NCBI RefSeq assembly: GCF_057098645.1
Contig: NZ_CM169472.1
Reading direction: 5' to 3' (one strand)
Length of the DNA: 64,000 nt
In this document: positions 1 through 3,000 of the stretch, in pieces
Position numbering within the stretch: the stretch's first letter is position 1
Layout: each line of letters opens with the position of its first letter
Position numbers: made by a program

Positions 1-3000
1 TAATCCGCCTCCTGATTGTGTTCGGATGCCGGACGGTAGAACTGAGGTTATCGGAGATCAGCGAGTGGGATTTTACCGAAATGCTCTGGACCGTGCCGAA
101 AGAACACAGCAAAACGAAGGTGGCAATATTCCGGCCCATACCGGAAGCAATACTGCCGTTCGTCACGCAGCTGGTGGAGCAGAACAGGCACACGGGTTTA
201 TTGCTGGGGGAAGTGAAACAGGAAACAAGCGTGTCGCAGTACGGCAGATTAGCGCATAGGAGGCTAAATCACCCTCACTGGTCACTACATGACATCCGGC
301 GCACCTTTACAACGATGCTGAACGATTTAGGCGTGGATCCTCACGTCGTGGAGCAGCTTACAGGCCACCAGATGCCAGGAATGCAGCGAGTTTATAATCA
401 TTCCCGTTATCTGGATGCTAAACGCAATGCGCTGGATATGTGGACGGAGCGGTTAGGGATACTGGCGGGAACACATGAAAACGTAACCACGCTACCAGTA
501 GCCAGAAGAAAATAATTTTTTTCGTGTTTTTTCAGCATGCGCATACTGGATATGCGAACAGATACAACGTGCAACAATGAGCAACAATGTGGAACAACCA
601 CGAACAAGAGGCGAAAAAGCGTACGGATTTATAAGTAGCTGATTTTTAATGCGTTACTGGTTTTTTATACACTAGCGAATCACTCTTTAAAGAGCGAGAA
701 AAAAGGCATGAAACAATATTTTATGCCTTTGTATTAACATGAATTTAAAAGATTTTATTCTTACTGTTTCATTTTCTGTAAATCATACATCCTCAGTATT
801 TGCCATTCATCACTCTAGCGGGAACAATACGACACAATAAGACACCTGATGACTCTTTAAGAAACGAAAGGGGGCAATAGTGTTAAGCACTGATCGGTTT
901 ATACGTGAAAAAGAATGCGAAAAACTAACCGGCCTTAGCCGTACGTGTCGCTACCGCCTGGAAAAGGCCGGACAATTCCCATCACGTCGTAAACTTGGCG
1001 GTCGTTCCGTTGGCTGGTCTTTATCCGAGGTTCTGGCCTGGAAGGATAGCTGCAAGGCAGTTCATTAATCACGCTGGCGGCACGCAGCCGCCACACATCA
1101 ATCATCTGAACACAGAGCTATAACCATGAAGATTGAATATACGCCAGAACGTAGGCGGGGATTCGTTCGCCCTGGTGAAACTGAAAAACAACAAAATTGG
1201 GGTTTTTCAGGCATAACAAAAAGCGCCCAGTTACCTGAGCGCCTTTGTGAACGATTAACCTGCTGCACAAAAAATAAATATGAGCATTGGAATTATATCA
1301 ACTGTGTGAAGAAGCGCCACAATTGCCGGATTACAGGCAAAAAAAATGCGACCTATGATGGTCGCAAAAATATGATATACATGTTGATTACACTATGCAT
1401 CGACAACGATGCCACATTTTTGGCTGGTTGGCAAATCTGTCATCAGGGCGGACAACAACGCCACGATCTCATCTTTCTTGGGCAATTTTTAAGAAAATCC
1501 TCAAGGGCAAATCTTTTTGGCCTTGCTTCCTGTTCATGGTCAGGCATTTCATCCATTTCTCTTAATTTTTTTTCTACCTGTCTTTCAAGTATGGATAATG
1601 CGATTTCCCGTAATTCTTCGTTGTTCATTGTCTACTCCTGTAAAGAAATGCGCCGTAGTTCCTCACACCACGGCGCTGATAGTGATTATTCTGATTCTTT
1701 GGCCTTCCGGCGCTGTTCATATTTTAATTTGCGTCCACAGGCATCTAAGACCCATGCGGAAAAATTAGCACTAGGATTAGTTAATTTTTCTTGTTCAACG
1801 CTGGCATCAATCCCATCTATAAGCTCATGTGGGAATCGAATATTTTTCTTTGCTGATTTGTTGTTTTTGTTACCGCTAGACATTGATGCACCTCACTTAA
1901 ATGGACTTTATGGGCGCACACAATACAGTAAAAAAAATGAGATGTTAAGTATTGACATGTGCGCACACATGATTTTAATCTGTGCGCACAGTTTGAGTTT
2001 TGTTACTCAAATTAAGCAACGCCCCGCAGTGCTCGCAACACATGCAGGGCGTCTAACCACCAACGATAGCAACAGTATCGAGGCAGCTATGAGAAATCAT
2101 ACCACACACCCGCAAGGGCGGGACTCGCACAACCTGAATAAATACATCTGGCGTTTTATCGCCCTGAGCACGGCACAACCGCGCGTGATTACCATTGAGG
2201 CCACCAGCGAACAGGAAGCACGCCAGCAATCTCCGGCTGGCTGCGTGATGGTATTCGCTGCCCGTATTCGTCAGGAGGTGTGCCATGTGCAATAACATCC
2301 GTCCGGACGCAGCCGCCGAAGCCATCATAACGCTAATGCACGCGCTGATTGATATTTCTGTTATCGCAGACATGGCGCATAAGCACGCCACCAGTGAAAC
2401 AGAATATGCCGGGGCTTTCGTTCCTCATTCGCTGGCGGTTATGCAACTTAGTGCGGATATGGCGCTGAATGAGGCCAAAGCCATCCTGATTGCTGATTGT
2501 GAAAATGGGGGGGGGTTATGCGTGATGATCGTTTTAATTCCCTGAAACAGGAATTTTCCGGCGTTCCTGATGATGCGGCTGATGCGCTTTCGTCAATATC
2601 TGAAATTATGCGGGTGGCTTTTTTCTTTCTTTGCACTGATGAGCACAGGGATACAGGGCTAAATATTCTTGATATTGCCGCTAACTATGCTGATTTCGTG
2701 ACAGAAGTTGTTTTAAGAAAAACGACGGACGGGGATTAATATGCGTGATATTTACCTTGAAACAATAGACCGCGCATTTCTTGCACTTTCTCACAGTGAA
2801 AACATGCTGGAAATATTGCGCATATGGCTTGACACGCTTGGAGATAATGAACGCGACAAACAAAAATCAAGAATTGCCACGGCATTAATAACGCTACTTG
2901 AGCCTGTAATAATGGAACTGCAAAAAATAGATCTATTGCACGACAGATATAAAGAACAGCACACCGGAGAATAAAAATAATGAAACTTAAATATTCTGGC

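What the first reader, a model, noticed from the sequence alone, without database searches (positions are those of the whole stretch)
2089..2295. Icd-like division inhibitor homologue at the head of the replication operon
This 68-aa protein carries the motif I recall from Icd-like proteins of P4-type elements. If functional, the island could arrest host division during its own replication.
Basis: partly seen in the sequence, partly recalled or inferred. Interest (0 to 1): 0.35.

Follow-up and report, generated by a model that had tools for sequence, protein, structure and literature searches.

The report
Icd/Kil-family gene heading satellite replication operon
The 68-codon gene is a real, already catalogued relative of the phage P1 Icd protein (which blocks cell division by binding FtsZ) and of satellite P4 Kil, and it is the first translated gene of a phage-satellite island's replication operon; it is ordinary except that this island lacks the antisense-RNA switch that guards the gene in P1, P4 and some sister islands.

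Summary
Window 2089-2295 (+) is a 68-codon ORF with a GAGG Shine-Dalgarno 5 nt upstream. It is the first gene after a divergent, operator-rich control region, ahead of DUF4222, a RepA-type helicase and SSB.

- NCBIfam NF033153 "Icd-like" scores 69.8 bits (cut-off 25).
- P1 Icd and the P4 65-aa kil ORF hit the same model.
- The match covers the P1 Icd segment (aa 12-51) shown experimentally to bind FtsZ and cause filamentation.
- The core is under purifying selection (dN/dS 0.30).

RefSeq already gives this name to the contiguous leader plus gene in about 1,130 of 5,426 complete E. coli genomes, so the gene is not novel.

What I add:
- The gene is the "gate" ORF of the operon. Its stop overlaps the next gene's start in 100 of 102 related loci, as in P1 and P4.
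- Sister islands carry isrK/C4 antisense RNAs between the same leader and the Icd core, a P4 eta/kil-like nested arrangement. This island has leader and core fused, with no C4/isrK anywhere in the window.
- A conserved structured 5' leader precedes the gene.

A division phenotype remains untested.

The parts
2089..2295 (+). Icd/Kil-family gene, 68 codons plus stop
   Evidence: ORF and translation. NF033153 69.8 bits, residues 19-62. Homology to P1 Icd and P4 Kil. Core dN/dS 0.30. AF2 core pLDDT about 90, beta-beta-alpha-beta.
2089..2142 (+). Leader codons 1-18 (MRNHTTHPQGRDSHNLNK). Predicted disordered. Shared nearly base for base with sister islands, where the same ATG opens a 178-184-aa Eta-like ORF. 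Contains a GC hairpin CCCGC-AAGG-GCGGG at 2109-2122.
   Evidence: pLDDT 46-65. Identical leader in L004 and L096 followed by isrK and C4. Very low synonymous divergence, pS 0.03 against 0.23 in the core, partly from ascertainment. Hairpin predicted but invariant.
2143..2274 (+). Conserved Icd core (codons 19-62): WRF, (T/S)ExEAR, P.GC and FAAR motifs. Equivalent to P1 Icd aa 12-51.
   Evidence: Alignment A1: F23, E41 and A44 invariant; W21, A38, R45 and R59 at least 90% conserved. BLASTP to P1 Icd. P1 core defined experimentally.
2273..2295 (+). Coupling junction: the AGGAGG Shine-Dalgarno and the ATG (2285) of the next gene lie inside the last codons of the Icd-like gene (11-nt overlap, ATGTGCAATAA).
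   Evidence: Sequence. The next gene's ATG overlaps the stop by 4, 8 or 11 nt in 100 of 102 related loci, whichever gene follows. The same holds in P1 (icd/ant1, 4 nt) and P4 (kil/epsilon, 8 nt).
2019..2052 (+). Conserved 5'-leader stem-loop (ACGCCCCGCA ... TGCAGGGCGT)
   Evidence: Inverted repeat I5. MFE fold z = -4.0 for 1985-2110. Six base pairs with compensatory double changes among 77 distinct leaders.
2064..2083 (+). Second leader stem-loop CGATA-loop-TATCG (2064-2080) abutting the Shine-Dalgarno GAGG (2080-2083)
   Evidence: Stem invariant with a variable loop. One compensatory pair (A-U to U-A in 2 sequences).
1911..1990 (.). Control region: three TGTGCGCACA palindromes (1911-1920 at 9/10; 1958-1967; 1981-1990). 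They bracket a perfect -35 TTGACA (1952-1957) with a weak -10 (TAATCT, 1976-1981, 18-nt spacer).
   Evidence: Repeats. Hexamers read from the sequence. The + strand promoter was NOT called by the consensus scan, so it is inferred. The palindrome co-occurs only with the MSSGN(K/T)NNKSAK 65-aa divergent protein in related loci.
1686..1883 (-). Divergent 65-aa YlcI/YnfO-family (DUF3950) protein, the presumed operator-binding regulator of the operon
   Evidence: NF041551 59 bits. PF13132. Operator and regulator co-vary across loci.
2285..5536 (+). Rest of the operon: small ORFs 2285-2545 and 2518-2739 (one gene split at a G9 tract), 2741-2974, DUF4222 2980-3279, RepA-family helicase 3276-4676, 4878-5129, SSB 5126-5536

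Best explanation
The ORF is a genuine member of the Icd/Kil family of small phage and satellite proteins. It sits in a capsid-forming PICI-type satellite island and probably has two roles.

(1) Product (inferred by homology). The ~45-residue beta-beta-alpha-beta core corresponds to the P1 Icd segment that binds FtsZ and blocks Z-ring formation. When the island's early operon is switched on, the protein most likely delays host division (or is toxic, as P4 Kil is) while the island replicates.

(2) ORF as gate. The anatomy is shown; the mechanism is inferred. It is the first translated ORF of the operon, and its stop overlaps the Shine-Dalgarno and ATG of the next gene. Ribosomes translating it are therefore expected to deliver translation, and protection from Rho, to the downstream replication genes. 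P1 (icd to ant) and P4 (kil, whose coding sequence contains the Rho-dependent terminator t_imm) work this way.

In P1, P4 and about 10% of sister islands the gene's ribosome-binding site is guarded by a C4/CI antisense RNA with isrK/seqA-type targets. In this island that cassette is absent and the upstream Eta-like leader is fused directly to the Icd core. Expression should therefore depend only on the operator-bearing promoter and its cognate divergent small regulator, possibly modulated by a conserved structured 5' leader.
For: Family membership:
- NF033153 scores 69.8 bits for the window protein, 52.6 for P1 Icd and 76.1 for the P4 65-aa ORF.
- BLASTP against P1 Icd gives E 4e-6 over window residues 18-60 and P1 residues 11-50.
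- Family-wide conserved W21, R22, F23, E41, A44, R45 and R59. These include the equivalents of P1 R15, E32 and R49, which are predicted FtsZ contacts.

Function of the founding member: P1 Icd aa 12-51 is sufficient for filamentation and for FtsZ interaction (PMC11897509).

Protein-level selection: core dN/dS is 0.30. The AF2 core is confidently folded.

Gate role:
- The stop overlaps the next gene's start in 100 of 102 loci, with at least 8 different downstream genes, and also in P1 and P4.
- P4 t_imm (X51522 8365-8209; PMC3177188) lies exactly within the 65-aa ORF 8365-8168.
- P4 Eta/Kil biology is summarised in PMC10111431.
- C exceeds G (C/G 1.2-1.6) over the leader and the first two-thirds of the ORF, as in P4 t_imm.

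Loss of RNA control:
- No C4, isrK or c4-a1b1 hit in 1880-2320 at E<=10, in 1-9000 at E<=1, or in the whole window at gathering thresholds.
- Positive controls worked: P4, L004 and all nine further long-form loci tested carry isrK plus C4 between the identical leader and the core.
- L096 carries the direct repeat ATCTGGCGTTTT / CTCTGGCGCTTT on both sides of the cassette, and L055 is the expected recombinant.

Protein-based control: the TGTGCGCACA operators co-vary with the YlcI/YnfO-type divergent gene.
Against: - No experiment exists on this protein or on any PICI homologue.
- Identity to P1 Icd is only 35% (28% to P4 Kil). One predicted P1 contact (Y24) is not conserved.
- The P1 data come from over-expression, and its FtsZ interface is an AlphaFold3 prediction.
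- The P1 study found that extra terminal residues weaken activity, and this protein has an 18-residue disordered N-terminal extension.
- P4 Kil is described as cell-killing with no stated target.
- Rho-dependent termination inside this ORF is not shown. The C>G skew is modest.
- The + strand promoter has a poor -10 and was not called by the scan.
Confidence: 0.6

Rival explanations
1. Pure leader ORF. Only the act of translating it matters, for coupling and anti-termination of the replication operon. The peptide itself has no cellular target.
For: The stop/start overlap is conserved whichever gene follows. P4 t_imm lies inside kil, and translation of the region prevents termination. The leader codons are conserved at the nucleotide rather than the amino-acid level.
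Against: The core is under purifying selection (dN/dS 0.30). The same residues are conserved from P1 to P4 to PICIs despite nucleotide divergence. The P1 product has a demonstrated protein-level activity, and P4 Kil kills when expressed.
Confidence: 0.15
2. A toxic or host-manipulating protein with a target other than FtsZ (Kil-like killing, interference with the helper phage, or regulation of island replication). The "division inhibitor" label would then not transfer from P1.
For: Low identity to P1 Icd (35%). The window protein belongs to a different subfamily from P1. P4 Kil is described only as cell-killing. P1 contact Y24 is not conserved. Weak, non-significant fold resemblance to small polymerase- or ribosome-binding proteins.
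Against: The experimentally sufficient P1 core coincides exactly with the conserved domain. The conserved charged residues match the predicted FtsZ contacts.
Confidence: 0.2
3. A transcriptional repressor, as the PHROG families phrog_6196 and phrog_1743 label it.
For: PHROG annotation.
Against: The label traces to the obsolete "cI gene product" CDS of the P4 record (X51522 8168-8584). P4 immunity is exerted by the CI RNA, which Rfam C4 matches at 8420-8507. There is no DNA-binding domain hit in Pfam or NCBIfam, and the predicted fold is not HTH or RHH.
Confidence: 0.02
4. Not a gene: a chance ORF over a conserved regulatory DNA or RNA region.
For: The leader part is conserved at the nucleotide level and overlaps predicted RNA hairpins.
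Against: A good Shine-Dalgarno and ATG, a profile E-value of 1.5e-19, purifying selection, a confident predicted fold, and homologues with demonstrated products.
Confidence: 0.02

Closest known systems
Bacteriophage P1 Icd (73 aa, immI operon c4-icd-ant)
   Same: Same NCBIfam family (NF033153). 35% identity across the functional core (P1 aa 12-51, window aa 19-61). WRF, TExEAR and F(A/T)AR motifs are conserved. First translated ORF of its operon, with the stop overlapping the next gene's start.
   Different: P1 icd is preceded by the C4 antisense RNA and its a/b target sites; the window has none. P1 Icd has a 22-residue C-terminal tail, whereas the window protein has an 18-residue N-terminal leader. 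The downstream gene is antirepressor ant in P1 and replication genes here. FtsZ binding is shown only for P1.
Satellite phage P4 Kil and Eta (nested genes of the left operon, downstream of the CI RNA)
   Same: The P4 65-aa ORF is the best-scoring characterised member of the same family (76.1 bits). It heads the operon that leads to the replication gene (alpha), and its stop overlaps the next gene (epsilon). Sister islands reproduce the eta/kil nested layout with isrK and C4 inside the long ORF.
   Different: In the window the long (Eta-like) and short (Kil-like) ORFs are collapsed into one 68-codon gene. The internal constitutive promoter, the seqA/isrK element and the CI/C4 RNA are missing. 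Identity to P4 Kil is only 28%. That this ORF is kil, and that kil has 65 codons, comes from my memory of Forti et al. 1999, which the library does not hold. It is consistent with PMC10111431 and with the t_imm coordinates.
RefSeq/PGAP "host cell division inhibitor Icd-like protein" of E. coli satellite prophages
   Same: Identical or 94-99% identical proteins are already named this way. The contiguous leader plus gene is found in 1,132 of 5,426 complete E. coli genomes.
   Different: Nothing substantive. Database start sites are inconsistent, ranging from 66-68 aa to 115 aa and beyond.
Lambda Kil, T7 Gp0.4, T5 Hdi (small phage FtsZ inhibitors)
   Same: A possible functional analogy: small early proteins that block Z-ring formation (PMC11897509 discussion).
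   Different: These are unrelated helix-turn-helix-like folds. No sequence or structural similarity was found here.
Capsid-forming PICIs (cf-PICI, prototype EcCIEDL933)
   Same: The host element has int, alpA and rep, then capsid-protease-portal-connectors-HNH-TerS-TerL in the published order.
   Different: The cf-PICI preprint read here never mentions division, and the full-text search listed no occurrence of icd in the four papers it returned that focus on cf-PICIs. The role of this gene in the family is undescribed.

Membership tests
Icd-like protein family (NCBIfam NF033153, founding member P1 Icd) | Profile score above the curated cut-off | tested here: met
   69.8 bits against a cut-off of 25, E 1.5e-19, full profile 1-48 matched to residues 19-62.
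Icd-like protein family (NCBIfam NF033153, founding member P1 Icd) | Direct similarity to P1 Icd over its experimentally defined active core (aa 12-51) | tested here: met
   BLASTP 35% identity over 43 aa, E 4e-6, window 18-60 against P1 11-50. Core definition from PMC11897509.
Icd-like protein family (NCBIfam NF033153, founding member P1 Icd) | Conserved motif residues (W-R-F; T/S-E-x-E-A-R; F-A-A/G-R) | tested here: met
   All are present in the window protein. F23, E41 and A44 are invariant, and W21, A38, R45 and R59 are at least 90% conserved in the 51-sequence alignment A1, which includes P1 Icd and P4 Kil.
Icd-like protein family (NCBIfam NF033153, founding member P1 Icd) | Small three-strand, one-helix fold | tested here: met
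   AF2: E19-25, E32-38, H41-46, E54-61, core pLDDT about 90. This matches the three beta strands and one small helix predicted for Icd12-51 in PMC11897509. Both are predictions.
Icd-like protein family (NCBIfam NF033153, founding member P1 Icd) | Inhibits cell division or binds FtsZ | not testable with these tools
   Needs expression, microscopy and interaction assays. Shown only for P1 Icd.
P1 immI / P4 immunity module (C4/CI antisense RNA plus targets plus icd/kil) | C4/CI-type antisense RNA gene upstream of the Icd-like ORF | tested here: not met
   No RF01695 hit in 1880-2320 (E<=10), 1-9000 (E<=1) or the whole window at gathering thresholds. The model detects P4, L004 and all nine further long-form loci tested.
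P1 immI / P4 immunity module (C4/CI antisense RNA plus targets plus icd/kil) | isrK/seqA or a1b1 target element upstream | tested here: not met
   No RF01394 or RF03163 hit in the window. Both are present in P4 and in long-form islands.
P1 immI / P4 immunity module (C4/CI antisense RNA plus targets plus icd/kil) | Icd/Kil ORF is the first translated gene and is translationally coupled to the next gene | tested here: met
   11-nt stop/start overlap with an internal AGGAGG. Conserved in 100 of 102 loci. Overlap is 4 nt in P1 and 8 nt in P4.
P1 immI / P4 immunity module (C4/CI antisense RNA plus targets plus icd/kil) | Rho-dependent terminator within or just after the ORF, suppressed by its translation | tested here: inconclusive
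   Only composition could be examined. C/G is 1.2-1.6 over the leader and the first two-thirds of the ORF, against 1.1-1.9 in P4 t_imm and 1.7-2.5 in P1 icd. This is not diagnostic.
Capsid-forming PICI (host element) | int, alpA and rep plus capsid-protease-portal-connectors-HNH-TerS-TerL in that order | tested here: met
   Integrase C-terminus at 18-515 (cut by the window edge), AlpA at 880-1068, RepA helicase, then Phage_capsid, Peptidase_S78, Phage_portal, Phage_HCP, Phage_connect_1, HNH, Terminase_4 and TerL. Published definition. Absence of tail genes after 12448 was not checked.

The most novel reading that the evidence does not exclude
The Icd/Kil ORF is a portable "translation-gated entry" module shared by the P1 immI operon, the P4 left operon and Gram-negative PICIs. 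The RNA-immunity cassette (internal promoter, isrK, C4) is repeatedly lost or gained by recombination between short repeats at the start of the Icd core (ATCTGGCGYTT). On this reading the island is a C4-less recombinant that has handed control to a protein repressor plus a so far undescribed structured 5' leader (two hairpins, six or more covarying pairs) that tunes initiation at the Icd-like start codon.
Probability: 0.3. Interest if true: 0.45.

Novelty: already known. Interest (0 to 1): 0.22.

Why it matters
The gene itself is routine annotation. It still matters modestly in three ways.

First, P1 Icd was shown in 2025 to target FtsZ. About a fifth of complete E. coli genomes carry the short leader-plus-gene form on satellites, so helper-induced PICI induction may routinely include a division block that PICI and cf-PICI studies have not examined.

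Second, the comparison links P1 icd, P4 kil/eta and the PICI gene as one module combining a small effector protein with a translation-coupled gate to the early operon. It also shows that the antisense-RNA layer is optional. This offers a natural experiment on RNA-based versus protein-based immunity in satellites.

Third, it exposes annotation noise: "transcriptional repressor" in PHROGs, the Pfam Ash family laid over non-coding RNAs, and inconsistent start codons.

Tried and rejected
- I looked for a C4/CI-type antisense RNA upstream of the gene, as in P1. Rfam gave no hit at permissive thresholds, so the "complete immI-like module" reading was rejected. The only weak hits (mir-27, HOXA11-AS1, sau-6072) are chance.
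- tblastn of the 68-aa protein against 50,697 phage records did not reach P1 or P4. The relationship needed the profile and a direct pairwise comparison.
- The search for related loci with alignment A1 failed because no stretch was conserved enough. I replaced it with an exact DNA pattern from the leader. This biases leader codons 7-12 in the dN/dS analysis.
- Forti et al. 1999 (PMC94026), the primary source for kil and eta, is not held. I relied on secondary descriptions and memory, flagged as such.
- A literature hit for "icd" in a PICI paper turned out to be the isocitrate dehydrogenase integration site.
- The PGAP-style longer starts (for example 115 aa in L001) were rejected. They begin inside the operator/-35 region, and their upstream parts differ between loci with the immunity type. 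The SD-ATG at 2089 is invariant.
- The consensus promoter scan did not call the + strand promoter. It is kept only as an inference.
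Full report
**Observation**

Window 2089-2295 (+) is an ATG-to-TAA ORF of 68 codons, MRNHTTHPQGRDSHNLNKYIWRFIALSTAQPRVITIEATSEQEARQQSPAGCVMVFAARIRQEVCHVQ. 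GAGG lies at 2080-2083, 5 nt upstream of the ATG. The stop overlaps the ATG (2285) of the next ORF by 11 nt, and an AGGAGG at 2273-2278 lies inside the last codons.

On the left lie the 3' end of an integrase (18-515), an AlpA gene (880-1068), and two minus-strand small genes (1443-1628; 1686-1883, YlcI/YnfO/DUF3950). An intergenic region follows with three TGTGCGCACA palindromes.

On the right lie small ORFs, DUF4222, a RepA-family AAA_25 helicase, SSB and PerC. After these come capsid, prohead protease, portal, head completion, connector, HNH, TerS and TerL. This is the published gene order of capsid-forming PICIs.

**Is it an Icd-family protein?**

Yes.
- NCBIfam NF033153 (phage_ICD_like) matches residues 19-62 over the whole 48-position profile at 69.8 bits, cut-off 25.
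- I fetched the P1 immI region. P1 Icd hits the same model at 52.6 bits and aligns directly with the window protein at 35% identity over 43 aa, E 4e-6.
- In P4, the 65-aa ORF that ends the long reading frame 8168-8812 scores 76.1 bits. This is kil, by my recollection of Forti et al. 1999.
- A 51-sequence alignment spanning these and diverse database relatives keeps F23, E41 and A44 invariant, and W21, A38, R45 and R59 nearly so.
- AlphaFold2 on that alignment gives a confident beta-beta-alpha-beta core (pLDDT about 90) and a disordered N-terminal 18 residues.
- Across 66 distinct alleles from related loci the core has dN/dS 0.30 with pS 0.23.

It is therefore a protein under selection, not only an RNA or DNA signal.

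**What the family does**

A 2025 study showed that P1 Icd blocks Z-ring formation, interacts with FtsZ in two-hybrid and pull-down assays, and that residues 12-51 suffice (PMC11897509). That segment is exactly the region matched by NF033153 and aligned to window residues 19-61. The P1 residues predicted to contact FtsZ (R15, E32, R49) correspond to the conserved window residues R22, E41 and R59. P4 Kil "functions in cell killing" (PMC10111431). The division-inhibitor reading is therefore a reasonable transfer by homology, but it is untested for any PICI copy.

**A second role: gate of the operon**

In P1, icd overlaps ant1 by 4 nt and is annotated as required for ant expression. In P4, kil overlaps epsilon by 8 nt. 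The Rho-dependent terminator t_imm (X51522 8365-8209; PMC3177188) lies exactly inside the kil coding sequence (8365-8168), and translation through the region prevents termination.

I scanned viral contigs for the leader motif. In 100 of 102 loci the next gene's ATG overlaps the Icd-like stop by 4, 8 or 11 nt, although at least eight unrelated genes follow it. The variable C-terminal tail (RQGVCHA, RQEVCHVQ, RQGVGL...) is thus set by the neighbour's Shine-Dalgarno and start.

The window's leader and the first two-thirds of the ORF are C>G (C/G 1.2-1.6), similar to P4 t_imm. This is only compatible with a rut site, not proof of one.

**What is different here: no antisense RNA**

Rfam finds C4 (the CI RNA), isrK (seqA) and c4-a1b1 in P4. 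It finds nothing of the kind in the window at permissive thresholds, nor at each family's gathering score across the whole 64 kb.

A sister island (L004) has the same backbone and carries the same 5' leader and the same first 18 codons. These are followed by a sigma-70-like TTGATC-18-TATGAT, isrK and C4. Then comes a separate Shine-Dalgarno and ATG for the Icd core, all in one frame. This is a 180-aa Eta-like ORF with a nested 63-aa Kil-like ORF, the P4 arrangement.

All nine further long-form loci tested have isrK plus C4. The short-form loci tested (L064, with a protein identical to the window's; L066; L022) have none at that position.

Among loci with this leader, 91 are short (66-69 aa) and 11 are long (178-184 aa). 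L096 has ATCTGGCGTTTT directly after the leader and CTCTGGCGCTTT at the true core, so these direct repeats flank the RNA cassette. L055 is a short form with a long-type core. Both forms occur with the same divergent regulators. Recombination across these repeats, in one direction or the other, explains the two architectures.

In the window, control must therefore be exerted at the promoter. The TGTGCGCACA palindromes occur only together with the MSSGN(K/T)NNKSAK YlcI/YnfO-type divergent protein, whereas other divergent proteins come with other palindromes. The + strand promoter (perfect -35, weak -10) is my inference; the scan did not call it.

**A conserved structured leader**

The 5' UTR folds better than shuffles (z = -4.0). 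In 77 distinct leaders, the stem-loop at window 2019-2052 shows six pairs with compensatory double substitutions. The stem CGATA/TATCG next to the Shine-Dalgarno shows one. No Rfam family matches it. Its function is unknown; mRNA stability, processing or modulation of initiation are possibilities.

**Novelty and verdict**

RefSeq already annotates this protein as "host cell division inhibitor Icd-like protein". The contiguous leader plus gene occurs in 1,132 of 5,426 complete E. coli genomes, up to six copies per genome. The finding is real and correctly interpreted but already known. The added value is the link to P4 kil/eta and t_imm, the conserved coupling architecture, the C4-less fusion form, and the undescribed leader structure. 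Interest is low to moderate.

Noticed in passing
window 2019-2083; alignment A2 (77 loci): The 5' leader of the operon holds two conserved stem-loops, and no Rfam family matches them. The first has six base pairs with compensatory double changes. The second abuts the Shine-Dalgarno sequence and has a variable loop with one compensatory pair.
   Followed up: partly
L003 (P4) 8329-8701; P0154 and P0161; Pfam PF10554: The Pfam "Ash protein family" (Phage_ASH) matches the translation of the stretch that encodes the isrK/seqA and C4/CI RNAs, which is the N-terminal part of P4 eta. Its conservation is probably RNA-driven. Likewise, the PHROG label "transcriptional repressor" for phrog_6196, 1743 and 6928 appears to be inherited from the obsolete P4 "cI gene product" CDS.
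   Followed up: partly
window 1126-2295; L001 4326-4673; many P-ids: The frame of the Icd-like gene stays open for 389 codons upstream, antisense to two real genes. Gene callers therefore produce 90-500-aa "Icd-like" proteins, and PGAP start sites vary (66-68 aa, 97-117 aa). The longer starts lie in the operator and promoter region.
   Followed up: partly
window 2285-2739 (G-run 2507-2515): The gene after the Icd-like ORF is split into 86-aa and 73-aa ORFs at a G9 tract. L004 has G7 and a single 154-aa gene, and phrog_2512 (154 positions) covers both halves. This could be a frameshift, phase variation or a sequencing error.
   Followed up: partly
L029 3220-3308; L055 11814-11901: Some sister islands carry a C4-type RNA gene about 150 nt downstream of the Icd-like gene. 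In L029 it is a second copy. In L055 it is the only one, in a short-form island. The window has no such copy.
   Followed up: no
window 1911-1990 and 1686-1883; Operator palindromes and the divergently encoded small proteins co-vary across related islands (for example TGTGCGCACA with the YlcI/YnfO 65-aa protein, and GGTGTACACC with an 81-aa protein). This points to many immunity specificities upstream of one conserved leader and Icd module.
   Followed up: partly
window 6063-12448: A complete cf-PICI morphogenesis and packaging module: capsid, S78 protease, portal, head completion, gp6-like connector, HNH, TerS and TerL. A PerC-family regulator lies at 5427-5819.
   Followed up: partly
window 44105-44318 (+): A strong Rfam match to the STnc560 Hfq-binding sRNA (280 bits), far from the island and unrelated to the finding.
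   Followed up: no
window 1216-1270 (-): A GC-rich hairpin followed by a U-run (GGCGCUCAGGUAACUGGGCGCUUUUUGU) that weakly resembles sau-6072. It is probably an intrinsic terminator for the minus-strand genes.
   Followed up: no
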